Shown here: positions 33,446 to 57,964 of the stretch, in pieces
Position numbering within the stretch: position 1 is the first letter of the stretch
Layout: each line of letters starts with the position of its first letter
Assembly: GCA_050290185.1 (NCBI GenBank)
Contig: JBNKHE010000008.1
Location: 128,001 to 192,000 of the forward strand
Reading direction: 5' to 3'
DNA from: Pontiella sp.
GTDB lineage: Bacteria; Verrucomicrobiota; Kiritimatiellia; Kiritimatiellales; Pontiellaceae
Length of the DNA: 64,000 nt
The notes under the pieces: model-generated
What the model was told of the DNA's origin: nothing
The model's input: the letters and a program-made list of their open reading frames with translations, nothing else
Databases searched by the model: none
Translations under genes and position numbers: made by a program

Positions 33446-34252
33446 ATGAACGCAACAAGATCAAAACAAAAGATGACGGGCTCGCATCGGGCCGTACTCA
33501 CAGGAGCAATGATTCTGTTCTTGATCGGGACAAACACCAGCTTTGCATATGACCGCTACAATGATGGGTGTGTTGATTGCCACGGTGCATTTAACGATTC
33601 GACTACCACAAAAGGATCCACTTTCGCCCTTGGGAATAAACACGACATGCACCGCTATACGATGGGTACGGATTGTGATCTATGCCATCTGAGTGGGGAT
33701 CAAAAAAATCCATACATGTGGAAGTCGAATGGTACGGCTAACAATTCCGGATTAGGGTGCACGGGATGCCACGTGGGCAATGGTTTGCGCGCGCATCACG
33801 ATGCAAATGGAGTGGTGGAATGTTATGATTGCCATGATCCCGCTGCATCGTCCGCAGAGAACGTTGATCCACCCTATTATGGAACGGTGGATACGTTCGC
33901 GAACAATGCGTGCAACGATATTTTGGCATCGAACACCAACGAAAACTGGACGGTTGGTGATTTTCTTGGGTTAGACAACGATGGCGATGGCCTTTACGAC
34001 TTGGCGGATTATTCCTGCGGTCCATTGCGGTTGGTGGAAATTGTTCCCGAGGGCAACAACATACGTGTCCGCTGGGAAACAGCCGGTGGCCGCGCGGAGC
34101 GAATTCAGGCAACGTCGGTCCTTACCAATGGGTTTTCGAATATTGGGACAACCGTTACGATTCCTGGCGTTGGCATCGTGACCCAGGAAGTGGTTGAGGT
34201 AAGCGGTGCTGTAGACCCGGTGCGCTTCTATCGGATTCGTTCTATACCCTGA
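33446..34252 (+). CDS. Secreted tetraheme c-type cytochrome with C-terminal FYR domain
   Basis: Signal peptide; CVDCH, CDLCH, CTGCH, CYDCH; then LDNDGDG and a beta-rich tail ending RFYRIRSIP. Confidence 0.85.
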   Translation: MNATRSKQKMTGSHRAVLTGAMILFLIGTNTSFAYDRYNDGCVDCHGAFNDSTTTKGSTFALGNKHDMHRYTMGTDCDLCHLSGDQKNPYMWKSNGTANNSGLGCTGCHVGNGLRAHHDANGVVECYDCHDPAASSAENVDPPYYGTVDTFANNACNDILASNTNENWTVGDFLGLDNDGDGLYDLADYSCGPLRLVEIVPEGNNIRVRWETAGGRAERIQATSVLTNGFSNIGTTVTIPGVGIVTQEVVEVSGAVDPVRFYRIRSIP

Positions 34253-34275
34253 TCACCGACATAGCCCGGAGATTG

Positions 34276-34317
34276 AAAGCGCCGTTGCGGTAGGCATGAC
34301 CGTAGCGGCGTTTTTTT
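34276..34317 (+). terminator. Intrinsic terminator
   Basis: GCGCCGTTGCGGT-AGGCATG-ACCGTAGCGGCGT followed by a T-run. Confidence 0.7.
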
Positions 34318-34334
34318 CTTTTCCGGCAAAAAAG

Positions 34335-34600
34335 CAAATTGGCATCCACCGAGGCATCCTGAAGCAGGACGTCGTATTGGTAGCCATATCTCCAAAATCA
34401 AGATCGGGTGTGAGGGTGCCGGGGGCGGCATACCATGCGGATTCGCCATCAAGGGCGATTTGGACACAGGTGTAACCGCCACTGTCTACCTTTTCCACCA
34501 CGGTTCCAACGGATCCGGGCATCGGTTCCGCCCATGCCGTTCCAGGGAAAAGCAGCAGGGACGCAAAAAGAGACGGGATGATTCGTTTCGTTGCAGACAT
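34335..34600 (-). pseudogene. Degenerate paralog of the OB-fold periplasmic protein at 43916-44416
   Basis: GTVVEKVDSGGYTCVQIAL..WYAAP matches GTVVSTEDSGSYTYVQLAI..WYAVP. It then jumps to GTLTPDLDFG and continues YGYQYDVLLQDASV only after a 2-nt (GA) frameshift. Confidence 0.7.
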
Positions 34601-34680
34601 GGCGGTTTCCTTTTTCCTTCAGGGATTAAAAGTCCTACAGCATGCAGGTCCTGAAAAGCTTGAAGTCAAGGCCGGTTTCG

Positions 34681-35100: not shown

Positions 35101-38100
35101 GTGAGATTCAAAAGCACCAATGGTATATGTGCGGCTTTGTGCGCACTGGTCTGCTTGGCCGCAGTTCCGGCCCTGGCCCAGTCCAATCACACTGCAAAGG
35201 TGGATTTTACCAAAATTGACCCCAATGCCGAATTCAAAGAAGGGCGGTTATTGGTGCGTTTCAGGCCAGGCAATGAAAAAGCCAGAGCCACACGCCAGAA
35301 CAAAATGGCTGCGTTAGGCGGAAACATCAGTAAACAGTTTAAGTCGTTTCCTGATCTATGCGTTGTTGAATTGAATCCCGGTATGAATGTTAAAGCGGCG
35401 CTGAAATCGTTTAACGGGAGCTCCGAAGTTCTTTATGCCCAGCCTGATTATGCTTGTCAGGCATGCAACATTCCCAATGACCCGTTGCTCTCGTACCTGT
35501 GGGGCATGGACAATACCGGCCAAACCGGAGGCACACCCGACGCCGATATCGATGCACCGGAGGCCTGGGATATGTCCACCGGGGACGGCAGCGTCGTAGT
35601 GGCCGTCATTGACACAGGAGTGGACTACACCCATCCGGATTTGGATGACAATATGTGGGTCAACAGCGGTGAAATAGCCGATAACGGAGTGGACGACGAC
35701 GGCAACGGCTACATAGATGACGTATACGGCTATGATTTCCGCAATGGCGACGCCGATCCAATGGACGACAATTCCTACTACGGAATTTACCATGGCACTC
35801 ATTGTGCAGGCACTGTTGGTGCCGAAGGCAACAACGGCGAGGGCGTGGCCGGTGTTTGCTGGGATGTACGTATCATGGCTCTCAAATTTTTGAATTGGCA
35901 AGGAAGTGGTTGGAACTCCGACGCAATAGATTGTATCGACTATGCCATACAGAATGGAGCTAATGTGATAAGCGCCTCCTGGGGGGGGGGAGGATACAGC
36001 CAGGCGTTGAAAGACGCCATTGACGACGCAGGTGCGAACGGCATTGTGTTCGTCGTAGCCGCGGGCAACTCTTCTTTGAACGCCGATAGCATCCCGTTCT
36101 ATCCTGCCTGCTATGACTCAGACAACATCATTTCCGTGATTAGCACCGACGACAACGATGCCCTGTCGTCGTTCTCCAACTATGGATTGCTCTCCACCGA
36201 TTTGGGGGCGCCGGGAAGCGACATTTACAGTTGCGAGCCTGGTGGAGGATATCATTATCTCGATGGGACATCGATGGCAGCCCCCTGTGTTGCGGGGGCT
36301 TGTGCACTGTTGCTTTCCGTCAACCCCGACCTTTCCGTCGCTGAAATCAAACAGACTCTGATGGACACGGTTGATCCGACATTGACAGGCGTATGTGCCT
36401 CGGGCGGCCGACTCAACCTCGCCAGCGCAGTTGCTTTGAGTTCATTCAGCTACACCGTCAATCCGAACTACACCATCACCATCACCCAATACAACGGCGT
36501 TGGCGGCAACGTGGTCATTCCCAGCGAGATTGGTGGCCGTCCCGTGACCACCATTGGCGTTGGCGCGTTCGCAGATTGTTCCGGTCTGACGAGTGTGGAT
36601 ATCCCCGGCTCCGTTACGACCATTGACGATGGCGCGTTCGCTGGTTGTTCCGGTCTGATAGGCGTGGGCATACCCAGCTCTGTTACGACCATTGGCGATG
36701 GGGTGTTCTCAGGTTGTTCCGGTCTGACAAGCGTGGGCATACCCTACACTGTTACGAGCCTTGGCGATGGGGTGTTCGCAGGTTGTTCCGGTCTGACGAG
36801 CGTGGGTATACTCGGCCCCGTTACAACCATTGGCGACGGGACGTTCGCAGGTTGTTCCGGTCTGACGAGCGTGTATATGCCCGGTACCGTTACGAGCATT
36901 GGCTATGGGGCGTTCTCAGGTTGTTCTGCTCTGACGAGCGTGGATATTCCCGATGCCGTTACAACCCTTGGCAATGGGGCGTTCGCGGGTTGTTCTGCTC
37001 TGACGAGCGTGGTTATACCTGATAATGTTACCGTTATCGGTGATCAGGCGTTTGCTGGTTGTTCCGGTCTGACGAGTGTGGATATACCCGACGGTGTCAC
37101 TACCATTGGCAGCGCTGCGTTCGGAAGTTGTTCTAGCCTGTCCGACATACTGATCGGTAGTGGGGTTGCCTCCATTGGTGATTATGCGTTCGCAGGTTGT
37201 TCCAGTCTGACGAATGCGGTATTTTCTGGAGATGCGCCTTCGTTGGGTTCGAACGTCTTTATCAGTGATAACTCCTGTACGGTTTACTATTATGCAGGTA
37301 CGTCGGGCTGGGGGACCACGTTCGGTGGGCGTCCGACGGTTCAGTGGGCTAATCCCTCCCACTTCAATTATACCGTAGATTCGGGCAGCACCATTACCAT
37401 CACCGGGTACACTGGTTCCGGAGGTCATGTGGTTATTCCCGGGTATATTGAAGGACTGCCCGTGAGCACCATTGGCGGTGGGGCGTTCTTTCAGTGTAGC
37501 AACCTGACGAGCGTGAACATACCCGGCAGTGTCACCATCATTGGCGGTGGGGCGTTCGCAAATTGTCCCAATCTAGCGAGCGTGGATATACCCAACAGCG
37601 TCACCTCCATTGGTGATGCGGCATTCGCAGGTGGTTCCAGTCTAACGAGCGTGCATATACCCGACGGCGTTACCGCTATTGCCGGTTCGACGTTCGTAGC
37701 TTGTTCCAGCCTGACGAGCGCGGATATTCCCGACAGTGTCACCACCATTGGTGATTATGCGTTCGCCGGTTGTTCCAGCCTGCACGACATAAATATCGGC
37801 AGTGGGGTTAACTCCATTGGTGATTATGGGTTCGCAAGTTGTTCCTCCCTGACGGCTGCGGTATTTTTGGGACATGAGCCTTCATCGGGTTCGAACGCCT
37901 TTATCGGTGCTAACTCCTGTACGGTTTACTATTATGCAGGTGCGTCGGGCTGGGGGGCCACGTTCGCTGGGCGTCCGACGGTGCCGTTGGATAATCCCTC
38001 TCTGTTCAACTACACAACAAACACGGACAACACCATTACCATCACCGGGTACATCGGTTCCGGAGGTGATGTGGTCATTTCCAGGTACATTGACGGCCTG

Positions 38101-38637
38101 CCCGTGAGCACCATTGGCGGTGGGGCGTTCTTTCAGTGTAGCAACCTGACGAGCGCGAACATACCCGGCAGTGTCACCATCATTGGCGCTGGAGCGTTTG
38201 CAAATTGTCCCAATCTAGCGAGCGTGGATGTGCCCAACAGCGTCACCTCCATTGGCAGCGCGGCGTTCGCAGGTTGTGGCAGTCTAATGAGCGTGCATAT
38301 ACCCGATGGCGTCACCGCCATTGCCGGTTCGACGTTCGTAGCTTGTTCCAGCCTGACGAGCGCGGATATTCCCGACAGTGTCACCACCATTGGTGATTAC
38401 GCGTTCGCAGGTTGTTCCAGCCTGCCCGACATAATGATCGGCAGTGGGGTTAACTCCATTGGTGATTATGGGTTCGCAAGTTGTTCCTCCCTGACGGGTG
38501 CGGAATTTTTTGGGGATGCACCTGCATTGGGAGGTTCGAATGTCTTTATCGGGGCTAACTCCTGTACGGTTTACTATCATGCAGGTACGTCGGGCTGGGG
38601 GCCCGTATACGGTGGCCGTCCGACGCAAGAGCTTTAG
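35101..38637 (+). CDS. Secreted S8 serine peptidase with three BspA-type (LRR_5) repeat blocks
   Basis: RBS AAGGAGG + GTG; propeptide; 'VAVIDTG', 'HGTHCAG', 'AAGN', 'GTSMAAP'; many 'LTSVxIPxSVTTIGxxAFxxC' repeats. Confidence 0.93.
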   Translation: MRFKSTNGICAALCALVCLAAVPALAQSNHTAKVDFTKIDPNAEFKEGRLLVRFRPGNEKARATRQNKMAALGGNISKQFKSFPDLCVVELNPGMNVKAALKSFNGSSEVLYAQPDYACQACNIPNDPLLSYLWGMDNTGQTGGTPDADIDAPEAWDMSTGDGSVVVAVIDTGVDYTHPDLDDNMWVNSGEIADNGVDDDGNGYIDDVYGYDFRNGDADPMDDNSYYGIYHGTHCAGTVGAEGNNGEGVAGVCWDVRIMALKFLNWQGSGWNSDAIDCIDYAIQNGANVISASWGGGGYSQALKDAIDDAGANGIVFVVAAGNSSLNADSIPFYPACYDSDNIISVISTDDNDALSSFSNYGLLSTDLGAPGSDIYSCEPGGGYHYLDGTSMAAPCVAGACALLLSVNPDLSVAEIKQTLMDTVDPTLTGVCASGGRLNLASAVALSSFSYTVNPNYTITITQYNGVGGNVVIPSEIGGRPVTTIGVGAFADCSGLTSVDIPGSVTTIDDGAFAGCSGLIGVGIPSSVTTIGDGVFSGCSGLTSVGIPYTVTSLGDGVFAGCSGLTSVGILGPVTTIGDGTFAGCSGLTSVYMPGTVTSIGYGAFSGCSALTSVDIPDAVTTLGNGAFAGCSALTSVVIPDNVTVIGDQAFAGCSGLTSVDIPDGVTTIGSAAFGSCSSLSDILIGSGVASIGDYAFAGCSSLTNAVFSGDAPSLGSNVFISDNSCTVYYYAGTSGWGTTFGGRPTVQWANPSHFNYTVDSGSTITITGYTGSGGHVVIPGYIEGLPVSTIGGGAFFQCSNLTSVNIPGSVTIIGGGAFANCPNLASVDIPNSVTSIGDAAFAGGSSLTSVHIPDGVTAIAGSTFVACSSLTSADIPDSVTTIGDYAFAGCSSLHDINIGSGVNSIGDYGFASCSSLTAAVFLGHEPSSGSNAFIGANSCTVYYYAGASGWGATFAGRPTVPLDNPSLFNYTTNTDNTITITGYIGSGGDVVISRYIDGLPVSTIGGGAFFQCSNLTSANIPGSVTIIGAGAFANCPNLASVDVPNSVTSIGSAAFAGCGSLMSVHIPDGVTAIAGSTFVACSSLTSADIPDSVTTIGDYAFAGCSSLPDIMIGSGVNSIGDYGFASCSSLTGAEFFGDAPALGGSNVFIGANSCTVYYHAGTSGWGPVYGGRPTQEL

Positions 38638-43915: not shown

Positions 43916-44416
43916 TTATGGAGCGGCTGAATTTGTGCTTCCGCAGCAAGCGTTCGTTGCATTTTGCAACGGGCAGCACGCGCTGTTCGTTGACGTGCAA
44001 ACCGGAGGATGACCCGGAGGAAGCGTGGTTTGAATCGACGGATGTCCGGGAGGCAGGGTGGCTTGGACGGGGGGATGTCCGGCAGGGAGGTTGCCCGTCG
44101 TTGATTCCGCTCCGATCGTGTTGATGCCGTCGGCGAAATAGACGGTCTCGAAGGTACGGTCGAGTGTCTTGCTGTAGAAGTTTTTCATCGGCAGTCCGGG
44201 CGGTGCAACGACCTTTTCTCCCGCCTTGAATTCGCTGGCGGGAACGGCATACCAAACGTTGCTGCCTTCGATCGCAAGCTGGACGTATGTATAGGAGCCA
44301 CTGTCTTCTGTGGAGACCACCGTTCCTATAGTCGGGGATGTTGCGTCTTCGGCTGCGGCATAGCCCGAAAAACCGGCTATGAGTGCAAGAATGATCCATT
44401 TTCGAAGGTCTGGCAT
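43916..44416 (-). CDS. Periplasmic OB-fold (NrfJ-like) protein with LPxGHP repeats and a Cys-rich tail
   Basis: Signal peptide; 'GTVVSTEDSGSYTYV...WYAVP...MKNFYSKTLDRTFETVYF'; three LPxGHP motifs; tail CTSTNSACC...NACC. Confidence 0.7.
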   Translation of the reverse strand: MPDLRKWIILALIAGFSGYAAAEDATSPTIGTVVSTEDSGSYTYVQLAIEGSNVWYAVPASEFKAGEKVVAPPGLPMKNFYSKTLDRTFETVYFADGINTIGAESTTGNLPAGHPPVQATLPPGHPSIQTTLPPGHPPVCTSTNSACCPLQNATNACCGSTNSAAP

Positions 44417-47462: not shown

Positions 47463-48557
47463 ATGAAAGATCCTTTTGAAAAGCTAAAGAAGGCCTTCTT
47501 TGTCGCCGGCGTGAACTACCGTACGGCACCGGTCGAGGTTCGTGAGCGGATGGCGGTGGCGCATCCGGATCGTGAAGAGGTCAGTCGCTTGCTTCAGCTC
47601 AAGGCAGGGCTTTCCGAGGTAGTGGTGCTCTGGACCTGCAACCGGGTCGAAATCTATGGCGTGACTGCCCGGGGTGGCGAGGTTGATGTCGCTGCCATTT
47701 TCGAATGTATGGGAAGGGAAGCCCCAAGCCTGTCTTCTCATGTCTATTGTCTCTACGGGCAGGATGCGCTGACCCACCTGTTCAAGGTTTCCTGTGGTCT
47801 GGATTCCATGGTTTTGGGTGAAACCCAGATTACCGGACAGGTTCGCGATGCCTACGAAGCCGCCCGCAAGGTGACGCTGGCCGGAAAAATCCTCAACAGC
47901 GTATTCCAGAAAGCATTGCAGACGGCTAAGGCGGTCCGTACGCAGACGTCGCTCGGGCAGGGGGCCCGATCCGTTGGCGGTGCCGCAGTTGCCCATGCGC
48001 GCGAGGTTCTTGGTTCGGATGGTCTGGGTCGGCACAAGGTTTTGATGATCGGTGCGGGTGAAATGGCTGCCTGCTGCCTGCTCCACCTTCAGAAAAAAGG
48101 GGAATGCGAAGTGGTTGTGGCCAACCGTTCGCAGGATCGTGCACGGCGTTTGGCAGAAGAGTTCGAGGGAACGGCGATCCCTTTCCGTGAACGTTATGAG
48201 GCCATGGTAGATGCTGATGTGGTGATCAGTTCAACCGGCAGTACCTCAACGGTGATTCATCGTGCCGAATTGGAGCAGGTCATGCAGCTCCGCTCGCAGC
48301 GACCGCTGATGATTATCGATATTGCGGTGCCTCGCGACGTGGATCCCGATGTTGTGGAAGTGGGCGGGGTTCATCTTCACGATATCGATGCCTTGGAGTC
48401 CACGGTGCGGCAGACGCTGGGCCGTTGGGAAAAAGATCTGGAATTCTGCGAAGAAATCATGGCGCAGGAGATTGAAAATCTAAAGGAGCAGTTCCGCAGC
48501 CGGGCTGCCGCCCGCAAGCGGGCCCAGCAACAACAACGGTTACAGCAGGCGGGCTAG
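47463..48557 (+). CDS. hemA: Glutamyl-tRNA reductase (second copy, short C-terminus)
   Basis: 'GVNYRTAPVEVRE', 'TCNRVEIY', 'GLDSMVLGETQITGQVR', 'IGAGEMA', 'IDIAVPRDVD'. Confidence 0.93.
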   Translation: MKDPFEKLKKAFFVAGVNYRTAPVEVRERMAVAHPDREEVSRLLQLKAGLSEVVVLWTCNRVEIYGVTARGGEVDVAAIFECMGREAPSLSSHVYCLYGQDALTHLFKVSCGLDSMVLGETQITGQVRDAYEAARKVTLAGKILNSVFQKALQTAKAVRTQTSLGQGARSVGGAAVAHAREVLGSDGLGRHKVLMIGAGEMAACCLLHLQKKGECEVVVANRSQDRARRLAEEFEGTAIPFRERYEAMVDADVVISSTGSTSTVIHRAELEQVMQLRSQRPLMIIDIAVPRDVDPDVVEVGGVHLHDIDALESTVRQTLGRWEKDLEFCEEIMAQEIENLKEQFRSRAAARKRAQQQQRLQQAG

Positions 48558-48621
48558 AGACAATTGGGACAGGTAGACAGTTAACTAAGCAGTGGCGATA
48601 TCGCCATGGAGGGGAAATAAA

Positions 48622-50841
48622 ATGAAAAGTAAACGGGTACAACTCATGGCAATCGCTGCAATGGCGATAGCCATGCTTGGGATTCACTGCGTTCAGGCGC
48701 AGGAGTTACGGATCGACACGCGGCCTCTTACGCCGGCCGAAATTAGCAATTATGGATTGCCTGGCACGACGCAAATCGCCAACGGCACCCATGTGGTGGG
48801 TCTCGGGCAACCAGTCTACCTCGACTTGCTGGCCGACGCTGGTACGGTAGTTACTCAGGTGGTCTGGACACTGAATGACGTGGTAGATGTAGACGGATAT
48901 TCCGTCACCTCGTCCGCGACACTTACCAACAGCCCGCTCCCGATGTCCATGCCGACCTACGATTCCGTTGACCGGGTGGCTTTCGACCTTATCGACCGAT
49001 CCATGATTGTTCCGGATGTCAAGGGTACCTATCAGATTTCGGTCCAGGCCTTTACCTCGAATGGTGTACTGAATGCCGATATCGAAGTGGTAGGCTCCGT
49101 GTTCATCGGTCAGGATTCAGCCGCCTGTTCGCTTTGTCATGCCAGCAAGCAGGAGCCATTCATGACCACGCTCCATTCCGTTGCCCTGAAGGACAATATC
49201 AACGATCCGAACGGCCATTTTCAGGCATTCTGCATCAAGTGCCACGCACTGGGATATGACACGACACCGGGTGCTGTCAATATGGGCTTTGACGATGTCG
49301 CCGACGATCTGGGATGGACCTTCCCTGCCGTATTGGGAACCAACAACTGGGATGATCTACCGGATGCGCTGAAACTGAAATCCAATGTACAGTGCGAAAA
49401 CTGCCATGGTCCGGCCCAGGAACATCTGCGTTCCGGTGGCGATCCGAGCAAGATTGGCATCAGCATGAGTGCCGGTACCTGCGGGCAATGCCACGATGCG
49501 CCTTCGCATCATACCAAGAACTTTGAATGGGGAACTTCCGTTCACGGCCAGACTACAGTCGACCGTTCGGGTAGTTGCCGCAACTGCCACACGTCCGCCG
49601 GCTTTGTGGATGCGAACGATCCCGGCATGAATGAATACGGCGAAGAAGTCGCAGTTACAGCCACCTTCAAGGAAGGAATCACTTGCGCCGCATGCCATGA
49701 TCCGCATGCGAAGGGCGGACAGATTCATCAGTTGCGTGACCTGCAAAGCGTCGAGCTCGAAAATGGTAGTGTCATCACCAATGGCGGAGCCGGCATCGTG
49801 TGCATGAGTTGTCATAAATCGCGTCGCGAGGCCGAGACCTATGTCTATGGCAATGCCAGCAAGCACTTTGGGCCGCACCATGGACCGCAGGGCGATATGA
49901 TGGCTGGCGAAAATGCCGTTGAATATGGACAGGATATGCCCTCGTCCAAGCACTTGACCGTGGTTGAAGAGTCTTGTGCCGAGTGCCACATGCAGGAAAT
50001 TCCTGCCGGTCTTCCGGCCTATGCTGCCGGCAAAGTGGGTGGGCACTCTTTCGCACTGGCCTACGAAGACGGTACCAATGCTCCGATCTATCTGGTTGAC
50101 GCCTGCTCCAGTTGCCACGGCGAAATCGAAGACTTCAATTTCGGTGGCGAGGACTACGACCTCGATGGCGTGGTTGAAGGTGTACAGGAAGAAATCGAAG
50201 GTCTGTTGCATGATCTGGCGATGCTGCTGCCTCCGGTAGGTGATCCGGAAATCGGCCTGCATACCAGCACCGATGGCTACGACACGCTGCCGATCAAACG
50301 CGGGGTGTACAACTATCTGTTCGTTGAAGAAGACGGCAGCCATGGGGTGCATAACCCGAAGTATGCGGCCGCTATCCTGCGGGCCTCCATTGAAGACCTC
50401 AAGGGCGGTATCGATATCGACCATGACGGTCTGGTCGATGCATGGGAAATTGCCAACTTTGGTGATTTGACCAGCCAGTCCGGCATGGGCGACTACGATG
50501 GCGATGGCCTGACCAACGATCAGGAAGAAAATCTCGGAACCGATCCTCTGCTCGTTGACAGCGATGGTGACGGGATCTCCGACCTGGCCGAAGTTCAGGG
50601 CGGAAGCAACCCGCTGGATATCGACAGCGTTCCGACCAGCGATATGGTCATCCTGCCGGCGGCCGAAGTCGGCTACCTTCCGCAGGGTACGGGAACCGTG
50701 GTTCGTATCCAGTCTACCGATGCTCTCGGTGGTGGGTGGCAGGATCTCGGTCCGGCCCAGACCAATACCGGCAGTATGGTCTATGGTCTCGATTCCCTGC
50801 GGGGGACGACCAACCGCTTCTATCGCGCAATCGAGGAATAA
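48622..50841 (+). CDS. Secreted/surface nonaheme c-type cytochrome with N-terminal Ig-like domain, DxDxDG repeats and C-terminal FYR domain
   Basis: Signal peptide; 9 CxxCH and no CxxCK; 'EDGSHGVHNPKYA'; DIDHDG/DYDGDG/DSDGDG repeats; ends NRFYRAIEE. Confidence 0.88.
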   Translation: MKSKRVQLMAIAAMAIAMLGIHCVQAQELRIDTRPLTPAEISNYGLPGTTQIANGTHVVGLGQPVYLDLLADAGTVVTQVVWTLNDVVDVDGYSVTSSATLTNSPLPMSMPTYDSVDRVAFDLIDRSMIVPDVKGTYQISVQAFTSNGVLNADIEVVGSVFIGQDSAACSLCHASKQEPFMTTLHSVALKDNINDPNGHFQAFCIKCHALGYDTTPGAVNMGFDDVADDLGWTFPAVLGTNNWDDLPDALKLKSNVQCENCHGPAQEHLRSGGDPSKIGISMSAGTCGQCHDAPSHHTKNFEWGTSVHGQTTVDRSGSCRNCHTSAGFVDANDPGMNEYGEEVAVTATFKEGITCAACHDPHAKGGQIHQLRDLQSVELENGSVITNGGAGIVCMSCHKSRREAETYVYGNASKHFGPHHGPQGDMMAGENAVEYGQDMPSSKHLTVVEESCAECHMQEIPAGLPAYAAGKVGGHSFALAYEDGTNAPIYLVDACSSCHGEIEDFNFGGEDYDLDGVVEGVQEEIEGLLHDLAMLLPPVGDPEIGLHTSTDGYDTLPIKRGVYNYLFVEEDGSHGVHNPKYAAAILRASIEDLKGGIDIDHDGLVDAWEIANFGDLTSQSGMGDYDGDGLTNDQEENLGTDPLLVDSDGDGISDLAEVQGGSNPLDIDSVPTSDMVILPAAEVGYLPQGTGTVVRIQSTDALGGGWQDLGPAQTNTGSMVYGLDSLRGTTNRFYRAIEE

Positions 50842-50898: not shown

Positions 50899-52269
50899 AT
50901 GAAGGATCTTTCCAGAATCAGCCTTAACGTGACCTTGCTCGGCGCAGGGCTTTTTTTATTTGGGGCTTCGGCCTTTGGCAAAGAGGCGGCGTCCCCGGCC
51001 TATTCGGGTTCGTTACGCGCCACATACGACTATCGCGGGATGGGCGATTACGAAGACCATGATGCCTATAGCTACTGGTATTTTCGTGGACGCGATCTTG
51101 GCGATGAGCTTGTGGATATCTATACCTCCGGCCGGTTTCACTCCGACCTGGATGGCACCACCTCTACCGCATACGATCCCTTCGGAAGTATAAGCGATGG
51201 CTCACAGGGTGATTTTCGGTTGCTTCAGTTTTATGTGGATATTCACAACCGCGAGCAGAGCATGGCCATGCGCTACGGTCGTCAGTATGTAGACATCGCG
51301 GATTATATTCAACTGGATGGCGCGCAGGTCATGCTGTTTGAAAAGCAGGCGATTGGCGGCCGGGTATTTATCGGTCAGCCGGCCAGTGACTATTCCGCGA
51401 CAGACGGGGACGTCTTTTTGGGAGCATCTCTAGTCGGAAGACCATGGAGTGGCAATCAAAGCCGGGCCACCTATGCACGATATCGCGATGACAGCAAAGC
51501 TGTTGCGGATGATCATGTTTTTCTGAATATGAAACAAACCCTGGGGGACGAACTCAGGACGCACGCTTACCTTTCCGTCATGAATAATGATGTTCGCATG
51601 GGCGGGGCCGATCTGTTTTATGTCTCTATGTCGGATTATGTATTTGATGCGGTTTTGGGGGTTAAGCGCTGGGGGGATTACACTGCCGATACGCGGGCCT
51701 ATTCTCCTTTGTCGGAAGCCTTGAACGGTCTGGAGCCCTACACTATGGGATACGGCCGCTTTACCGCGGAACTGTTGCCCTGGCTATATCTTTCTCCGGG
51801 GGCCACGCTCCGTGAACCCGACGACGAAAACTTTACCAACCGCCGTTTTGAGCGGTACGACCTCAGTTTCATTCTGGAGCCGACTGACGGGCTCAGTTCC
51901 ACTGTTGCCCTGGAATACTGGGATGTGGACGACGACAGTGAATTTTTCGGTGTGAGTGGAGATATCCGCTACCGCTACCGGAAGCTCTGGGAGCTGTCGC
52001 TGGGGGCGGCCTACGTGGATTATACCTATCTGCAGTTAAGCGATCAGTCGGTGTTTAACAACGACGAAGCGATCCTTCCCGAACTTCCAATCAATCCGCA
52101 GGATGGTTCTCGCGTAGAGGCCTCCCCCAACGCGTTTACGTATTATCTGCGTGGACGGTGGAGCATCACCGAGAAAGCGGCGTTGCGGCTTTCGGGCGAA
52201 CTTGAAGACGATAGCGACGAGGAAGATCTGAGCTATCGGATTCGCACATCATTTGAGGTACGGCTGTGA
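50899..52269 (+). CDS. Putative outer-membrane beta-barrel (porin of a porin-cytochrome conduit)
   Basis: Signal peptide, no Cys, many amphipathic Tyr/Gly-rich strands ('MRYGRQYV..LDGAQV'), C-terminal strand SYRIRTSFEVRL; flanked by two multiheme cytochromes. Confidence 0.75.
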   Translation: MKDLSRISLNVTLLGAGLFLFGASAFGKEAASPAYSGSLRATYDYRGMGDYEDHDAYSYWYFRGRDLGDELVDIYTSGRFHSDLDGTTSTAYDPFGSISDGSQGDFRLLQFYVDIHNREQSMAMRYGRQYVDIADYIQLDGAQVMLFEKQAIGGRVFIGQPASDYSATDGDVFLGASLVGRPWSGNQSRATYARYRDDSKAVADDHVFLNMKQTLGDELRTHAYLSVMNNDVRMGGADLFYVSMSDYVFDAVLGVKRWGDYTADTRAYSPLSEALNGLEPYTMGYGRFTAELLPWLYLSPGATLREPDDENFTNRRFERYDLSFILEPTDGLSSTVALEYWDVDDDSEFFGVSGDIRYRYRKLWELSLGAAYVDYTYLQLSDQSVFNNDEAILPELPINPQDGSRVEASPNAFTYYLRGRWSITEKAALRLSGELEDDSDEEDLSYRIRTSFEVRL

Positions 52270-52271
52270 AA

Positions 52272-53267
52272 ATGAATCGCATAATCCAGTTCACGACGAT
52301 GGCTGTATTCCTTGTCCTGCTGTCCGGATGCAAGGAAGAAGAGAAATACCAGCTGCGCTTCAGTCACTATCTTCATGTAACCGAAAATGAAATGGGTTGC
52401 GATGAATGCCACGGTGAACCGGGACAACCCTCGTTCAGCGCCATTTCGCACGAAACCTGCCTCGACTGCCATGACGAGCCGGAGGCGGAAGAGATTGCCG
52501 CTGAAACCTGCGGAATGTGCCATCAGGAAAAACAGCTGGCTGTTTTTGCGCTGCCGGAAACCGAAGAAGCGGATGCCGCGTACGAGGTAGACAAAGTACC
52601 GGCCCGGAATATTTTCGTACACACTGAAGCCCTTGCAGGTCAATGCACGGACTGCCATGAATACTTGCTGGACGAAAATCTGGACGCTGTGCCTATGCTG
52701 GAGCGTAGCGATGTGCTGGCTATACGCCAGAAAGCCCATGCGTCGGGGCAGGAGTGTATCACTTGCCATGTAGATATGGATCCAGGGATTCCGCCGGCCA
52801 GTCATGATGTGGCATGGACCAAACGGCATGGCCGGTTTTCCATGCAGGATGATGCCTCGTGCAGCGTCTGCCATACACAGGACAGTTGCATGGATTGCCA
52901 TAATGTCATGCAGCCGGTTTCGCATAACACCATGTTCCGGACGCGCACGCACGGTACGCTTGCCGCGTGGAACCGCGACAGCTGCCAGGTATGCCATGAA
53001 GAAGACTCGTGCACGTCATGTCATGCCATGACGCGGCCAAGATCGCACAATGCCCGCTGGGGTGCTGCGGGTTTCAAACCGACACACTGTATTGGCTGCC
53101 ACGATACATCAACGCCGGGCGATGGTTGCGCAACCTGTCATGAGAATGGCAACGATGTCATGTTGCATGAACGCTACTGGGGAGGTGCTCCTATCAACCA
53201 TAACCAACCGGGCATTGAAAACTGCTACATCTGCCACTGGACGCAAGCCCCGCAAGGGACTCTCTAG
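52272..53267 (+). CDS. Dodecaheme c-type cytochrome lipoprotein (ExtA-like)
   Basis: Lipobox LLSGC; 'LRFSHYLH'; 12 CxxCH; repeats of P.SH...W...HG......CxxCH....CxxCH. Confidence 0.9.
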   Translation: MNRIIQFTTMAVFLVLLSGCKEEEKYQLRFSHYLHVTENEMGCDECHGEPGQPSFSAISHETCLDCHDEPEAEEIAAETCGMCHQEKQLAVFALPETEEADAAYEVDKVPARNIFVHTEALAGQCTDCHEYLLDENLDAVPMLERSDVLAIRQKAHASGQECITCHVDMDPGIPPASHDVAWTKRHGRFSMQDDASCSVCHTQDSCMDCHNVMQPVSHNTMFRTRTHGTLAAWNRDSCQVCHEEDSCTSCHAMTRPRSHNARWGAAGFKPTHCIGCHDTSTPGDGCATCHENGNDVMLHERYWGGAPINHNQPGIENCYICHWTQAPQGTL

Positions 53268-53278: not shown

Positions 53279-53950
53279 CTACAGTTTGCGAACGGTGCAT
53301 CCGTCAGGCGCGATGTCGATTTCAAAGTCGATGATGCCTTCCGAACCGCGGATCGTGGCCTTGACGGGCTCGGTAACCGTAAGTGCGAATGCCAGCGTAT
53401 TCAGTTCGGATGGCGAGCATTGAATAATGCCAAGACTGCCGGTCGCGTTGACGATACCTTCTGCGCTGGCCTCATTCGCTGCAGATGCGGGATGCAGAGA
53501 TACGATTTTAGATGAAGAGTTTCCCGGTACACGCACAACGAGTGTGATGTCTTCGGGCAGGTTGAGGCCTTCACCCACATTGAATTCCAAATGAACGGCC
53601 AGTCCTGCAGAGGTTTGCTGTACTGTAGCTTCCTGCAAGAACAGCGTTTCAACCTCTTCTTTGACGGGGTTGACGGGGAGGGAGGTGCGGTTTGTGCGCA
53701 TCGTTGAGAGCCGTTCCCGGGTCTCTTTCGATGAATCTCCGCTGTTTAAATCATTAATTTCCGCTTTGGCAGTGGTAAGTTCCTGCTGCAGTTTGCTGTT
53801 TTGAACGGTAAGCTGCTGCACGCGGTCAGTTGCTTCCGTATGATTGCGCCACAGCATCGCAATGGCGAGGAGCAGGATCACGGTGGGCGCCAGATAGAGT
53901 GCAACGATGAGAGGATTGCGGGGCCGGTTTGGAGAGGTTGATTTATTCAT
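53279..53950 (-). CDS. Hypothetical membrane-anchored coiled-coil protein
   Basis: One N-terminal TM helix, coiled coil, beta-rich C-terminus. Confidence 0.65.
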   Translation of the reverse strand: MNKSTSPNRPRNPLIVALYLAPTVILLLAIAMLWRNHTEATDRVQQLTVQNSKLQQELTTAKAEINDLNSGDSSKETRERLSTMRTNRTSLPVNPVKEEVETLFLQEATVQQTSAGLAVHLEFNVGEGLNLPEDITLVVRVPGNSSSKIVSLHPASAANEASAEGIVNATGSLGIIQCSPSELNTLAFALTVTEPVKATIRGSEGIIDFEIDIAPDGCTVRKL

Positions 53951-54119
53951 GATTTGAGTATGCGGTTCCAGTGTTCAAGGGTCAAGGTCATCATCGCGAT
54001 CCCGGGCTCTTGTTGAGGCTTTTTTCCTTTTCTTACGGGATATTCAGGATCATATGGGTCGACATCAGCAGGCTCAAATCCTAGAGTACGCACCAATTAC
54101 TAAAAACAGGGATTTGCTT

Positions 54120-54725
54120 ATGAAACAGATTGTTATTGCCTCCTCACTTTTGGTTTTGATCGCCGGTTGCAAACGCTCGGAGCCAACGTCCTATGAAGTT
54201 CCGAAGGAGCCGGCTACGCCGGCTTCCCAGCAGGCGGCTCAGCCGTCGATGGGCTCCATGGGTTCCGATACGGATATGCAAATGGTACAGGCTGCGCATG
54301 CCTCCATGATGCAAAACACCGCTTCGCCGGCATTCACCGCCGATCTGCCCGAAGGTTGGGCGGAAGCTCCAGGTACCGGTATGCGTATGGTGAGTTACAC
54401 GATCCCGGAAACCTCCATTGACTTCTACATGATTCCGCTTTCGATGGGCGATGTGCCGAGCAACGTCAACCGTTGGCGCGGTCAGGTGGACCTGCAGGAC
54501 GCCTCCCCGGAGGAAATCGCAGGTCAGGTGGAAACCTTCCAGGTCGACTGCCACGCCGTTAACTACATTGAAATCTACAATGAAGAAGGCGGCAAGGGCA
54601 TCATTGCCGCCATAGTCGATCTCGCTCCGAGCTACTGGTACTTCACGGCCAAGGGGTCTGTTGACGAACTGAAGTCCAACGCCGCCGATATCCGTAAAGT
54701 CATCGAAAGCATAAAAATCAAGTAG
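54120..54725 (+). CDS. Hypothetical lipoprotein heading the cytochrome c maturation operon
   Basis: Lipobox LIAGC, Met-rich linker, 'LPEGW..PGTGMR' and 'NVNRWRGQV'. Confidence 0.75.
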   Translation: MKQIVIASSLLVLIAGCKRSEPTSYEVPKEPATPASQQAAQPSMGSMGSDTDMQMVQAAHASMMQNTASPAFTADLPEGWAEAPGTGMRMVSYTIPETSIDFYMIPLSMGDVPSNVNRWRGQVDLQDASPEEIAGQVETFQVDCHAVNYIEIYNEEGGKGIIAAIVDLAPSYWYFTAKGSVDELKSNAADIRKVIESIKIK

Positions 54726-54794
54726 TCCCGGCGACGCTCGTTCGTCACGGAATCCGTGCGGAAACGGGGTTGTTTGCGGCTCGATTGCAACATT

Positions 54795-56216
54795 ATGAAA
54801 AAAATCATCGATTTCTTCCTGTCGCTTAAGCTGACGGTGGCATTGCTGGCCCTCAGTATGGTGCTGGTGCTCGCCGGAACGCTGGCCCAGATCGACAAGG
54901 ATATCTGGGCGGTCATGGAGCAGTATTTCCGCTGCTATATGGCTCAGATCGACCTGTTTGTCTTCTTCCCGCGTTCCTGGGACATTCCCCGCAATATATG
55001 GATTCCGTTCCCAGGCGGTTTTCTGATTGGCTTCCTGTTGACGGTCAACCTGCTGATGGTGCATTCCGCCAGTTTCAGGGTGGTGGCCAAGGGCAACCGT
55101 CGGCTCGCCGGGTTCTTGGTCCTGTTGCTGGGGATTCTGGTTGTGGTGGGCGTCATGTTCGGCTGGGGCACAACGGCGGTGGCGGCCACGGAAGACGATG
55201 CGTTTTGGCGCGTATTCCTGCGTCTTGGACGTGGAACATTGGCGGCCGTGGTCTTGTTCTGGGCCTGCCATTTGCTCTACTACAAACGCGCGGGCATGGT
55301 TTTGCTGCACGGTGGGATTCTGTTTCTGCTGATAGGCGAATTCATTACCGCCCAGTTTGCGGTGGAAGCCAACATGACCATCAAAGAGGGCGAAACGGTC
55401 AACTATATCGACCGCACCCAGCAACTTGAACTCTCCTTTACCGACACCTCGGATCCCCAGCATGACATAGTGACCGTGATCCCGCAGGAAAAACTAAAGG
55501 ACGACGCTCTGATCCAGCCCGACACCCTACCTTTCGATATCAAGATTAATCACTACATGCTCAACTCGAACAATCCGCAACCCCTGACCAACGTGTCCGA
55601 GCGGCAGCGCAACAGTTACCCGAAATACGAAGGCTACGGATCCCGTCTCTATGTAGCCGAACAGCGCGAGGTCAGCGGAACCATGAGCGCCCGCAATGCG
55701 CCGGCAGTCGATGTGGAATTGTTTGACCGGCAGTCCGGTGCATCGCTGGGCCGCTACATCCTGAGTCTGTGGTTCTACCCCAACTTCGTCAACCAGGCAT
55801 GGGATATGCCTACCCGGATCAAGGTTGATGGCAAGGAATATATCGTTTACTACCGTTTTGCGCGGGAATATCTGCGCTCCCCGAGCGGAAGTCCCTTTTC
55901 GATCACGCTGCTCGACTTTAATCATGAGAATTATGAAGGCACCCAGATGCCCAAGGATTTCTCCAGCCATATCCGGCTGGTCAATCCGGGGGATGATGTA
56001 GATCGAGAACTGCGTATCTGGATGAACAATCCCTTGCGCTATGCCCGCCGGACCTTCTATCAGTCCGGCTTTTTGCCTAATGACAGTGGAACCGTGCTGC
56101 AGGTGGTTCGCAACGATGTGTGGATGATTCCCTATCTCTCCTGCATGATCGTGTTCGTGGGCATGGTCGGACAGTTTTCCCAGTCGTTTAAACGCTATCT
56201 TCGGAGGGACGCCTGA
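54795..56216 (+). CDS. resB: Cytochrome c biogenesis protein ResB/CcsB (System II)
   Basis: 'SLKLTVALL...LVLAGTLAQ', 'GMVLLHGGIL', 'IWMNNPLRY..TFYQSGF'; coupled to ccsA (TGATG overlap). Confidence 0.85.
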   Translation: MKKIIDFFLSLKLTVALLALSMVLVLAGTLAQIDKDIWAVMEQYFRCYMAQIDLFVFFPRSWDIPRNIWIPFPGGFLIGFLLTVNLLMVHSASFRVVAKGNRRLAGFLVLLLGILVVVGVMFGWGTTAVAATEDDAFWRVFLRLGRGTLAAVVLFWACHLLYYKRAGMVLLHGGILFLLIGEFITAQFAVEANMTIKEGETVNYIDRTQQLELSFTDTSDPQHDIVTVIPQEKLKDDALIQPDTLPFDIKINHYMLNSNNPQPLTNVSERQRNSYPKYEGYGSRLYVAEQREVSGTMSARNAPAVDVELFDRQSGASLGRYILSLWFYPNFVNQAWDMPTRIKVDGKEYIVYYRFAREYLRSPSGSPFSITLLDFNHENYEGTQMPKDFSSHIRLVNPGDDVDRELRIWMNNPLRYARRTFYQSGFLPNDSGTVLQVVRNDVWMIPYLSCMIVFVGMVGQFSQSFKRYLRRDA

Positions 56217-57964
56217 TGCGCCGCACCATTACCAACATGATCGTTGTTCTGTTTGCGCTCTGGTTCTTTGCGGCCGGAGTACGGCCCGCAAAGGAAGGCG
56301 CGTCCGACTTCCAGCTCAGCGCCTTCGCGCATTTGCCGGTAAAATACGATGGCCGCATAAAACCGATCGACACTCTGGCGCGCAACCTGTTGACGATTCT
56401 TTCCGGCAAGCAGTCGTTGAGCACCGATGACGGCGAGCGGCTGAGTGCGGTGGAATGGTTTCTCGACACGGTGTCCGGGCGGGAAGAAGCGTTCGACTAC
56501 AAGGTCATCCGCATCGAAAACCTCGATGTGCTGTCCAGCCTTGGGCTGGAAGAGCGTCATGGGTTGCGCTACTCCTACCGCGAGCTGGCGCCGAGTCTCG
56601 GCAGGCTCAACATGGCCGCGCGGTCGGCCTATGCCAAGGACACCCGCGACCGCGACGTGTACGACCGGCAGATCGTCAAGCTGGCCAACAAGCTCTATAC
56701 CTTTGACAACGTGCTATCTTCGTTCGAGGATCCGTCGACCTTTCCCAAGGACCAGCTGATGGCCACTGCGCAGCGCTATATGCAGCTGGAGGGCTACTCG
56801 CTTCCGCTCGTGATTCCGCCGCACGACGCCACGAAACGCTGGCGACCGCTCATGAGTTCATTGCTGGCCGGGCCCATGACGACGCCCGATCCGCTGGCCG
56901 TCAAGTTCGCTGCCATGCTGCACGATTACCGGGATGGAAGTACCGCCGGATTCAATCATAATCTGATGGATTACGGCACGGCTGTGAGCCGTGCCAATCC
57001 GGAAGTCTTTAGGAAGCTTGGCTTCGAAGTGTTCTACAACCGGCTCGGCGCCTTTATGAAATCGGCCGAACTTTACCTGCTCGTCTTTGTCCTCAGTTGT
57101 ATCGGCTGGCTGTTCCGCAAGCAGGGCCTGCTGGATGCCGCCCGCACCCTGATGATCTTCGCCTTTATTCCGCACACGTTCGCCATCGTGGCCCGCGTTT
57201 TCCTCTCGGGCTATCCTCCGGTAACCAACCTCTACTCCTCCGCCATCTTCATCGGATGGGCGGCGGTAGCGGTCGGTATCCTGATGGAAACCGTCTTTCG
57301 CAAGAAGGCTGACGGTATCGGCAATCTGGTCGGCGGCATTGCCGGTTTCACCACCTTGCTTATTGCCCATTTTCTTGCAGGCGACGGCGACACCATGGAG
57401 CAGATGCGCGCTGTGCTTGATACCCGCTTCTGGCTGGCCACGCATGTGACCATAGTAACACTCGGTTATATGGCTACATTTGTCGCCGGTACCATCGGCA
57501 TGTTCTATGTCTTTGCCGGACTGTTCACCCGGCGGCTCGACACCGAGACCGAAGACGGCATGTACCGCATGCTTTACGGGACCGTCTGTTTCGCGCTGCT
57601 CCTCAGTTTTGTTGGAACAGTGCTCGGGGGCCTGTGGGCCGACGATTCATGGGGGCGGTTCTGGGGCTGGGATCCCAAAGAAAACGGAGCGCTACTGATC
57701 GTGCTCTGGAACGCCATCATGCTCCATGCCCGCTACGGAAAAATGGTCAAGCACCGCGGTTTTGCCATCATGTCCATATTCGGCAACATCGTCACGGCCT
57801 GGTCGTGGTTTGGGGTCAACCAGCTCAACGTCGGTCTGCATTCCTATGGCTTTACGGACTCGGCCGGCTTTTGGTTGATGGTTTTCATCCTTTCTCAGAT
57901 GGCCATTTGCATGGCATGCCTTATTCCGCCGCGGTTTTGGAGAAGCGGTGCCACCCAAGGCTAG
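56216..57964 (+). CDS. ccsA: Cytochrome c biogenesis protein CcsA/ResC (System II)
   Basis: 'GRIKPIDT', 'PPVTNLY', 'WLATHV', WWD domain 'GGLWADDSWGRFWGWDPKEN', 'GLHSYG'. Confidence 0.93.
   Translation: MRRTITNMIVVLFALWFFAAGVRPAKEGASDFQLSAFAHLPVKYDGRIKPIDTLARNLLTILSGKQSLSTDDGERLSAVEWFLDTVSGREEAFDYKVIRIENLDVLSSLGLEERHGLRYSYRELAPSLGRLNMAARSAYAKDTRDRDVYDRQIVKLANKLYTFDNVLSSFEDPSTFPKDQLMATAQRYMQLEGYSLPLVIPPHDATKRWRPLMSSLLAGPMTTPDPLAVKFAAMLHDYRDGSTAGFNHNLMDYGTAVSRANPEVFRKLGFEVFYNRLGAFMKSAELYLLVFVLSCIGWLFRKQGLLDAARTLMIFAFIPHTFAIVARVFLSGYPPVTNLYSSAIFIGWAAVAVGILMETVFRKKADGIGNLVGGIAGFTTLLIAHFLAGDGDTMEQMRAVLDTRFWLATHVTIVTLGYMATFVAGTIGMFYVFAGLFTRRLDTETEDGMYRMLYGTVCFALLLSFVGTVLGGLWADDSWGRFWGWDPKENGALLIVLWNAIMLHARYGKMVKHRGFAIMSIFGNIVTAWSWFGVNQLNVGLHSYGFTDSAGFWLMVFILSQMAICMACLIPPRFWRSGATQG

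What the first reader, a model, noticed from the sequence alone, without database searches (positions are those of the whole stretch)
33446..57964. Complete Geobacter-style extracellular electron transfer kit in an apparent PVC/Kiritimatiellota genome
Seen: seven c-type cytochromes with 4+11+19+7+4+9+12 = 66 heme motifs, plus a beta-barrel, ResB/CcsA, HemA and an Rrf2 regulator in one locus. Together they cover every compartment: inner-membrane quinol oxidases, periplasmic carrier, outer-membrane conduit and secreted cytochromes. Established: ImcH, CbcL and porin-cytochrome complexes are the core of metal and electrode respiration in Geobacter. Inference: the host looks like Kiritimatiellota, known mainly as anaerobic polysaccharide fermenters. 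This may therefore be an undescribed, self-contained EET system (Fe/Mn oxide, humic, electrode or interspecies transfer) in that lineage.
Basis: partly seen in the sequence, partly recalled or inferred. Interest (0 to 1): 0.92.

Follow-up and report, generated by a model that had tools for sequence, protein, structure and literature searches.

The report
Electron-export gene island in Kiritimatiellia
A group of sediment bacteria known only as sugar fermenters carries, in some of its members, a conserved gene cluster that looks like a complete wire for passing electrons from the inner membrane to the outside of the cell, though no one has yet shown it working.

Summary
In detail: seven cytochromes with 65 CxxCH plus one CX3CH motif, a barrel, ResB/CcsA, HemA and Rrf2, in a Pontiella genome with no sign of chimerism. 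The NapC-type protein meets every ImcH sequence feature tested, including five signature residues at the Geobacter positions. Two proteins are CbcL-like (11 and 19 hemes). The outer half is not shown to be Geobacter-derived: the predicted 22-strand barrel's named distant relatives are in anammox Brocadiales and Omnitrophota, and the 9-heme protein resembles OcwA of Gram-positive Thermincola, with a C-terminal tail shared with about 60 exported proteins of this genome. The barrel occurs in 27 of 401 Kiritimatiellia genomes (12 genera); 26 of these also carry ImcH. Its lipoprotein partner grows from 12 to 26 hemes by repeats. Best reading (0.7): menaquinol, fed by Na+-NQR, is oxidised and electrons leave the cell. 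Direction, acceptor and surface location are inferred only. Porin-cytochrome operons in Kiritimatiellaeota bins were mentioned in 2020, so this is a new variant of a known kind. The subtilase gene inside the interval is unrelated, and the CcsA serves the whole genome.

The parts
29440..33064 (-). Tetrapyrrole synthesis fusions flanking the island (CysG-N/HemA-like; HemC-CobA-HemD)
   Evidence: Pfam/NCBIfam; next to the island in G011, G002, G069 and others
33446..34252 (+). Small exported cytochrome c (4 CxxCH here, 3 in orthologues) with C-terminal FYR tail; accessory
   Evidence: tail E 0.088 here, 7e-7 to 0.018 in three orthologues
34253..34600 (-). Short paralogue of the 43916 protein, function unknown
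   Evidence: no family; BLAST cross-hits from 43916 orthologues
35101..38637 (+). Subtilase with BspA repeats; inserted, not part of the system
   Evidence: PF00082/PF13306; no hit in 15 relative loci, paralogues elsewhere in genome
38854..40788 (-). CbcL-like bc-type cytochrome, 11 c-hemes plus cytochrome b domain
   Evidence: PF01292 E 9.6e-16; seven conserved His columns in membrane part of 13 homologues
40913..43786 (-). CbcL-like bc-type cytochrome, 19 c-hemes plus cytochrome b domain
   Evidence: PF01292 E 1.9e-7
43916..44416 (-). Exported protein of unknown family, conserved beside CcsA or CbcL across the class
   Evidence: Atlas hits below 0.9, no named family
44436..45926 (-). ImcH-family menaquinol oxidase (3 TM, CX3CH + 6 CxxCH, 496 aa)
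   Evidence: against PMC6295460 and bioRxiv 2023.05.03.539133
46049..46070 (.). Conserved palindromic site between imcH and rrf2; candidate Rrf2 operator
   Evidence: rank 5 in genome
46135..46572 (+). Rrf2-family regulator with three C-terminal Cys
   Evidence: PF02082, TIGR00738 above cut-off; 69-75% identical in Pontiella relatives
46702..46723 (.). Conserved palindromic site upstream of the tetraheme gene; candidate Rrf2 operator
   Evidence: rank 1 in genome
46812..47390 (+). c554-like tetraheme, candidate periplasmic carrier
   Evidence: PF13435; PDB 1bvb E 1.2e-6
47463..48557 (+). HemA glutamyl-tRNA reductase
   Evidence: TIGR01035 331 bits, cut-off 209.55
48592..50841 (+). OcwA-like nonaheme: signal peptide, Ig-like domain, heme core with helix bundle, TSP3 repeats, FYR tail; candidate surface reductase
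50899..52269 (+). Predicted 22-strand plug-less outer-membrane barrel of no catalogued family
   Evidence: relatives
52266..53267 (+). 12-heme lipoprotein cytochrome (18-26 hemes in other families); overlaps the barrel stop codon
   Evidence: lipobox Gly-Cys invariant in 20 of 20 rows
53279..53950 (-). Membrane-anchored protein of unknown function, kept near the conduit across the class
   Evidence: no family above cut-off
54054..57964 (+). Lipoprotein, ResB and CcsA (system II heme attachment); the only CcsA in the genome

Best explanation
The island encodes an outward electron-transfer chain. Sugar-derived NADH reduces menaquinone through Na+-NQR (genes shown elsewhere in the genome; flux inferred). 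ImcH and the two CbcL-like proteins oxidise menaquinol at the periplasmic face (family membership shown by sequence; activity and a high/low-potential division of labour inferred from Geobacter). Their long heme chains and the c554-like tetraheme bridge the periplasm (inferred). The 12-heme lipoprotein runs through the 22-strand barrel (barrel predicted; threading inferred from Pcc/Mtr analogy and gene linkage). The OcwA-like nonaheme, placed outside by its FYR tail, hands electrons to Fe(III)/Mn(IV) oxides, humic quinones or partner cells (fold shown; location and acceptor inferred). Rrf2 switches both divergent arms through a palindromic operator (site conservation shown; binding inferred). 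The gain is most likely respiration-assisted fermentation: NADH is reoxidised with Na+ pumping in place of H2 release.
For: ImcH signature residues E127, H137, K173, Q179, Y188 sit at the same numbers as in G. sulfurreducens ImcH. ImcH homologues were reported only in Fe(III) reducers among metal-cycling bacteria in the 2018 survey. Barrel, strand number and a 12-heme partner fit the Pcc definition of 18-22 strands and 5-14 hemes. The nonaheme's best sequence and fold matches are two surface cytochromes, 6i5b OcwA and 6qvm (OcwA paper). Order nonaheme-barrel-lipoprotein is kept in 14 of 16 loci. 26 of 27 barrel-positive class genomes also have ImcH, against 19 of 374 barrel-negative ones; 13 of 13 in the genus. 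The genome has futalosine menaquinone genes, Nqr, Sdh/Frd and Rnf. Pontiella type strains make menaquinone and divert electrons to AQDS/MnO2 and ferric citrate during fermentation.
Against: No expression, localisation or physiology data. The FYR tail is not a proven export signal: no Pfam/NCBIfam match, 7 of 67 matches are internal, and the third held-out cytochrome did not score. The barrel model matches generic barrels with no stand-out. The nonaheme model is weak over residues 400-503 and Z 8.6 is only just above unrelated rows. OcwA itself reduces nitrite and hydroxylamine. CbcL/MtrH/MtoC homologues also occur in Fe(II) oxidisers. K. glycovorans reduces metals and AQDS without c-type cytochromes, and a Pontiella strain did not grow on H2 plus AQDS/MnO2, so metal reduction in this group need not use such a conduit. 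The genome lacks a PF00346 match, so no proton-pumping complex I. Kin are not independent in the co-occurrence counts.
Confidence: 0.7

Rival explanations
1. Periplasmic or surface reduction of soluble nitrogen or sulfur oxides, or detoxification: quinol oxidases feed c554 and an OcwA/NrfA-fold enzyme, under an NO- or redox-sensing Rrf2; the barrel only admits substrate.
For: The nonaheme profile also matches NrfA, MccA and octaheme nitrite reductases; it keeps two His-His motifs like those over OcwA's open hemes, and OcwA reduces nitrite and hydroxylamine; c554 is a nitrogen-cycle fold.
Against: All nine motifs are CxxCH; the genome already has NrfHA; a soluble-substrate enzyme does not need a translationally coupled barrel plus a 12-26 heme lipoprotein or two further bc-type oxidases.
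Confidence: 0.13
2. The same hardware runs inward: electrons from Fe(II), reduced humics, conductive minerals or partner cells enter the quinone pool or go to the cbb3 oxidase, NrfHA or nitrogenase.
For: CbcL/MtoC homologues occur in Fe(II) oxidisers; the genome has a Rieske/cytochrome b/cbb3-like cluster, NrfHA and a Nas/Nap-like molybdoenzyme.
Against: ImcH was not reported from Fe(II) oxidisers and is characterised as a menaquinol oxidase; the host has many tail-bearing glycoside hydrolases and so a surplus of reductant.
Confidence: 0.12
3. A Desulfobacterota fragment mis-assembled into, or recently transferred to, this genome.
For: Patchy presence: 13 of 53 genus genomes; ImcH and CbcL are best known from Geobacter.
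Against: GC 0.551 against flanks 0.559 and 0.544; orthologues at 52-85% in six relatives; pheT lies on the same contig as the island in G011, G023 and G069; Pontiella barrels form one clade, 96/99; named best hits are Pontiella/Kiritimatiellales.
Confidence: 0.01

Closest known systems
Geobacter sulfurreducens ImcH (GSU3259, locus tag recalled) and CbcL
   Same: ImcH architecture, length and five signature residues; CbcL layout of c-heme chain plus HydC/FdnI-like cytochrome b.
   Different: Two tandem CbcL-like genes with 11 and 19 hemes (CbcL has 9); no PpcA-sized triheme found; quinone reduced by Na+-NQR, with no complex I match; all parts in one locus.
Pcc porin-cytochrome conduits (Shi et al. 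2014, PMC4245776), notably the Anaeromyxobacter and Kuenenia types
   Same: 18-22 strand barrel next to a 12-14 heme cytochrome of 338-344 aa; here 22 strands, 12 hemes, 333 aa. Full-length profile match to a barrel set that includes Brocadiales proteins.
   Different: Those clusters lack an outer cytochrome; here an OcwA-like one is linked. Partner reaches 26 hemes in relatives against a maximum of 14 in that survey. Homology to OmbB/ExtB or kuste4024 was not tested directly.
OcwA of Thermincola potens (PDB 6I5B) and the Carboxydothermus S-layer undecaheme (6QVM)
   Same: Nine CxxCH, c554-plus-NrfA-like core, C-terminal helix bundle, two His-His motifs.
   Different: Diderm host; linked to a barrel; added N-terminal Ig-like domain, TSP3 repeats and FYR tail.
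Verrucomicrobial porin-MHC clusters of bog lakes (He et al. 2017, PMC5615132) and PCC operons in Kiritimatiellaeota bins (bioRxiv 2020.04.01.018762)
   Same: Same phylum or class, same hypothesis (electron export to humics or metals), untested.
   Different: He et al. describe 8-heme partners; only 1 genome outside the class matched the barrel, weakly, in a 401-genome phylum draw. The 2020 preprint's text does not name ImcH or CbcL; whether its operons are this family could not be checked because the figure is not held.

Membership tests
ImcH | Three N-terminal TM helices | tested here: met
   Hydropathy peaks 18-36, 54-72, 101-119; definition
ImcH | CX3CH next to the membrane domain plus six CX2CH, 495-519 aa | tested here: met
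   CX3CH at 132, CxxCH at 157, 206, 317, 426, 446, 486; 496 aa
ImcH | Heme 1 His137/Gln179; E127, K173, Y188 | tested here: met
   Same residues at the same numbers; E127 117, K173 120, Q179 119, Y188 99 of 120 homologues
ImcH | Direct alignment to the Geobacter protein | not tested
   No tool returned that sequence; the 120 listed hits stop at about 53% identity
CbcL/MtrH/MtoC | N-terminal c-heme chain fused to HydC/FdnI-like cytochrome b | tested here: met
   PF01292 above cut-off in both; conserved His columns
CbcL/MtrH/MtoC | Heme number: 9 in CbcL, 3-23 in homologues | tested here: met
   11 and 19, inside the homologue range but not CbcL's own 9
CbcL/MtrH/MtoC | Six C-terminal TM helices | tested here: inconclusive
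   A crude hydropathy cut found four in each
Pcc conduit | Barrel of 18-22 strands | tested here: met
   22 long strands, no plug, in the AlphaFold2 model; range
Pcc conduit | Adjacent periplasmic cytochrome of 5-14 hemes | tested here: met
   12 hemes, 4-base overlap; 18-26 in other families exceed the range
Pcc conduit | Sequence homology to OmbB/OmbC/ExtB/ExtE | tested here: inconclusive
Pcc conduit | Purified trans-membrane complex that conducts electrons | not testable with these tools
   Needs purification and proteoliposome assay
MtrCAB | MtrB/PioB barrel (26-28 strands, TIGR03509) with a decaheme MtrA/DmsE | tested here: not met
   No NCBIfam match for the barrel, no DmsE-family match for the 12-heme protein; 22 strands
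OcwA-type nonaheme | Nine hemes, c554+NrfA-like core, three-helix bundle | tested here: met
   Profile E 7e-20; Foldseek ranks 1-2; Z 8.6, rmsd 5.4, 315 aligned, tied with 6qvm Z 8.2
OcwA-type nonaheme | Two His-His motifs over open hemes | tested here: inconclusive
   HH at 306 and 429 align near OcwA's pairs, but geometry is unresolved in the low-confidence model
OcwA-type nonaheme | Cell-surface location | not testable with these tools
   Only the indirect tail argument
Nitrosomonas cytochrome c554 (NF043010) | Score above curated cut-off | tested here: not met
   42 bits against 400; distant homology only
T9SS C-terminal domain | Match to Por_Secre_tail or TIGR models | tested here: not met
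   Five tails scanned, no such match at E up to 1

The most novel reading that the evidence does not exclude
Kiritimatiellia hold their own class-wide electron-export machine in which an OcwA-type reductase is put on the cell surface by an uncharacterised Verrucomicrobiota export route that reads the FYR tail (the same route that displays their glycoside hydrolases), and a lipoprotein wire of adjustable length (12-26 hemes, built from tandem diheme repeats) reaches through and beyond the barrel. Primary polysaccharide degraders would then respire metal oxides or wire directly to partners, without an H2 intermediate.
Probability: 0.3. Interest if true: 0.85.

Novelty: new variant of a known kind. 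Interest (0 to 1): 0.62.

Why it matters
Kiritimatiellia are abundant anaerobic degraders of algal polysaccharides. A 2026 survey of 898 genomes describes the class as fermentative and its main text has no occurrence of 'cytochrome', 'heme', 'porin' or 'respirat'. If about 7% of sampled genomes (27 of 401), in at least 12 genera, export electrons, sediment carbon turnover can couple directly to Fe/Mn and humic reduction at the first step of degradation. The locus also offers a compact, single-copy EET chain, a natural length series of one heme wire, and a heme-stainable reporter for testing whether the FYR tail is an export signal. A genome named Pontiellaceae bacterium B1224, listed without a MAG label, carries barrel and ImcH relatives; if it is a culture, the question is directly testable.

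Tried and rejected
Complex prediction of barrel (30-456) with the 12-heme lipoprotein (20-331): no answer, score 0.13 against a mark of 0.32, no controls folded; not used for or against. PDB sequence search of barrel and ImcH: no match. Fold searches of the barrel: generic barrels only; MtrB 6r2q_B at Z 16.5 (rmsd 5.6, 360 aligned) sits among TonB receptors and ushers; no Pcc barrel structure was listed, which does not exclude one. NCBIfam on 60 of the 148 distant barrels and the second barrel: nothing above cut-off. Atlas: unnamed clusters for the barrel, hits under 0.9 for the 43916 protein. Sigma-70 and terminator scans at chance level (14 v 10.8; 17 v 14.2). Operator matrix: 8 sites above 17 bits in the genome against 6, 4, 2 in three shuffles, so no regulon outside the island is claimed. 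Second barrel (C3) is not related to this one (hhalign probability 0.5). Earlier findings by place, by sequence and by EET words: none. Literature searches naming Kiritimatiell* or Pontiella with EET terms and for a sorting domain listed no paper describing this island; subscription journals and bioRxiv supplements and figures are outside the library. PMC12133095, PMC11475568 do not mention Verrucomicrobia or Kiritimatiellia in the passages searched; PMC12057145 concerns flavin-based EET; PMC10504345 treats Kiritimatiellae as fermenters.


Full report
OBSERVATION. The seven cytochromes and their motif counts are as reported: 4, 11, 19, 6+1, 4, 9 and 12. The six-frame count of CxxCH is 68 in the interval and 2 in the preceding 33 kb. 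Rrf2, HemA, ResB and CcsA are confirmed by profile. The subtilase gene at 35101-38637 had no match in 15 relative loci and has paralogues elsewhere in the genome, so it is an insertion.

HOST. The window is G000:C8:128001-192000 of a 3.58-Mb genome, 95.5% complete, 0.09% contaminated. Its RpsD is 93% and 88% identical to that of two genomes whose records are titled Pontiella, and the named close relatives of the barrel and ImcH are Pontiella, Pontiellaceae or Kiritimatiellales. GC of the island equals its flanks, and pheT shares a contig with the island in three relatives. Chimerism is excluded.

INNER MEMBRANE. 44436-45926 has three N-terminal hydrophobic helices, a CX3CH followed by six CxxCH and 496 residues, the ImcH pattern of Zhong and Shi (PMC6295460; passages). 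E127, H137, K173, Q179 and Y188, named for G. sulfurreducens ImcH in bioRxiv 2023.05.03.539133 (passages and section 6), fall on the same numbers here and are nearly fixed in the 120 listed homologues. The 11- and 19-heme proteins join a c-heme chain to a PF01292 cytochrome b domain with seven conserved His columns in 13 rows. That survey already counted 1 ImcH and 4 CbcL-type homologues in Verrucomicrobia and a range of 3-23 hemes.

OUTER MEMBRANE. 50899-52269 matches no Pfam, NCBIfam or PDB sequence. AlphaFold2 with 58 sequences gives 22 long strands from residue 34 and no plug. Fold searches return generic barrels. A profile search found 492 representatives at E up to 0.001; of 30 clusters looked up and 93 hits of a distant-set profile, the named ones are Brocadiales and other Planctomycetota, Omnitrophota, Lentisphaerae, Sumerlaeota, Hydrogenedentes and SAR324. 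The two barrel sets align over 396 columns (probability 100). This fits the Pcc definition and sizes given for Anaeromyxobacter and Kuenenia clusters (PMC4245776; passages); a Brocadia porin-cytochrome pair was expressed on an electrode (bioRxiv 855817; passages), but identity with that pair was not tested. The downstream cytochrome has an invariant lipobox Gly-Cys in 20 of 20 rows. It has 12 hemes in all 9 Pontiella rows and 18-26 in all 10 rows from other families, through 3-6 copies of a His-Pro-rich repeat near the C-terminus. Which way the repeats point is unknown.

OUTER CYTOCHROME AND TAIL. The nonaheme's best PDB matches by sequence, profile and fold are OcwA (6I5B) and 6QVM (OcwA paper PMC6703420, passages). 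The model is moderate (pLDDT 68; 400-503 below 50). It adds an Ig-like N-terminal domain and TSP3 repeats. 34 of 4789 long ORFs end in F[FY]R[VLIA] against 2-7 in seven internal windows. An HMM from 27 of these (4 dropped by eye as unlike, 3 cytochromes held out) gave 67 matches at E below 0.01, 60 ending within 15 residues of the C-terminus; the nonaheme scored 0.0014, the 33446 cytochrome 0.088 and the third cytochrome did not score. 12 of 15 full-length Kiritimatiellia orthologues of the nonaheme score below 0.05; the homologue in L022, from a distant genome (RpsD 43%), stops after the helix bundle. Of 20 tail-bearing proteins scanned, 17 have Pfam matches, mostly glycoside hydrolase, carbohydrate-binding, laminin G, cadherin, peptidase or phosphatase domains. 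This suggests an outside location but does not show it; earlier AI notes reach the same unproven view.

DISTRIBUTION. The barrel is in 13 of 53 genus genomes, all 13 with ImcH; ImcH is in 19 of 53. Four contiguous genus genomes (G007, G044, G052, G071; 1-10 contigs) have neither. In a draw of 401 class genomes the barrel is in 27 (12 of 162 genera) and ImcH in 45; 26 have both. In a 401-genome phylum draw only one genome outside the class matched, at 9e-16. Order nonaheme-barrel-lipoprotein holds in 14 of 16 loci; G423 is rearranged and L074 too short. CbcL number and order vary, and ResB/CcsA are not beside the conduit in G009 or L021. In a 26-row tree the 7 Pontiella barrels form one clade (96/99); family f28 is split by f43 and f14 although it is one clade for PheT (quick tree), which hints at exchange within the class (G009, G331, G576, G027 and three partial barrels left out). 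An old class resident with many losses is the simplest reading; no donor was tested.

REGULATION. Both intergenic regions flanking rrf2 keep a palindrome. A matrix from 15 sites in 8 relatives, seeded with a consensus read from alignments that included the window, ranks window 46702 first and 46049 fifth in the genome; genome-wide counts are near those of shuffles.

METABOLIC CONTEXT. Futalosine menaquinone genes, Na+-NQR, Rnf, Sdh/Frd, an [FeFe] and a group-3-like [NiFe] hydrogenase, NrfHA and a cbb3-like cluster are present; no PF00346 (complex I/group 4) match. The island's CcsA is the only one. Four secretins pass cut-off. No multiheme ORF under 169 aa was found, so no PpcA.

WHAT IS KNOWN. 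Pontiella type strains ferment, make menaquinone, reduce ferric citrate and AQDS/MnO2 during fermentation by an unknown route, and one did not grow on H2 with AQDS/MnO2 (PMC7356697; passages); the cytochrome rows of their selected-annotation table show NrfAH, oxidases and four further c-type proteins each (supplement; the table is a selection). Porin-MHC clusters were proposed for bog Verrucomicrobia (PMC5615132, PMC6344600; passages) and PCC operons unlike verified ones were noted in Kiritimatiellaeota bins (bioRxiv 2020.04.01.018762; passages; figure not held). The class-wide preprint 10.64898/2026.10.06.756941 (part 1 of 4 read, whole text searched) does not mention cytochromes. PMC11492766 (passages) gave only context.

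VERDICT. Real, conserved, and most likely an outward EET chain (0.7). It works like ImcH/CbcL plus Pcc; ImcH membership is met on all sequence features tested, Pcc membership by architecture, MtrCAB not met. The parts are known kinds; the combination in one locus, the OcwA-type outer cytochrome with a lineage tail, the variable-length wire and the class-wide spread were not found in the papers searched. New variant of a known kind; interest 0.62.

Noticed in passing
G000:C3:173634-181226 (L023): Second conduit-like locus: membrane-anchored 4Fe-4S/FAD oxidoreductase, membrane protein, 20-heme and 24-heme cytochromes and a 603-aa protein ending in an aromatic residue (barrel assumed, not folded). 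Unrelated to the window barrel and found in only 1 of 201 class genomes, the own one.
   Followed up: partly
G000:C3:215287-221855 (L024): 881-aa hexaheme with Ig domain and an FYR ending lies directly upstream of prepilin-like genes on the same strand; with four secretins in the genome this hints at type II-like export of tail proteins.
   Followed up: partly
L018:1462-4846: HemA is 98% and the nonaheme 86% identical to the window's, while neighbours are 72-77%, suggesting recent exchange inside the island.
   Followed up: no
G000:C2:305522-308341 (L025): 9-heme cytochrome, 4Fe-4S protein and NrfD-like membrane subunit, a further quinone-linked module.
   Followed up: partly
G000:C7:11111-18812 (L027): Rieske protein, ExtP/ExtQ-like cytochrome b, 7-heme cytochrome and cbb3-like subunit I in one run.
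   Followed up: partly
G000:C9:117981-121789 (L079): Third RnfD/NqrB-like gene outside the rnf and nqr operons; possibly the flavin-based EET locus linked to Kiritimatiellales in PMC12057145.
   Followed up: no
G382:C38:6559-8013, G423:C3:24417-25877, G059:C92:1725-2612: ImcH matches with one stop inside (TGA, TAA, TAA).
   Followed up: no
G054:C157:406-9052: Two copies of the barrel on one contig.
   Followed up: no
L022 (G043): A distant uncultured genome holds the same cassette (CbcL-like 11 and 19, 8-heme OcwA-like without tail, barrel, 11-heme lipoprotein).
   Followed up: partly
window 10667-12205: Protein with TraF_2 and PorP/SprF matches above cut-off, in a genome whose tail proteins resemble T9SS cargo in layout.
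   Followed up: no
window 23673-25835: Subtilase that also carries the FYR tail.
   Followed up: partly
window 28071-29385: Two exported proteins of no family; the second ends in a PEP motif plus hydrophobic stretch (PEP-CTERM label recalled; no profile match).
   Followed up: no
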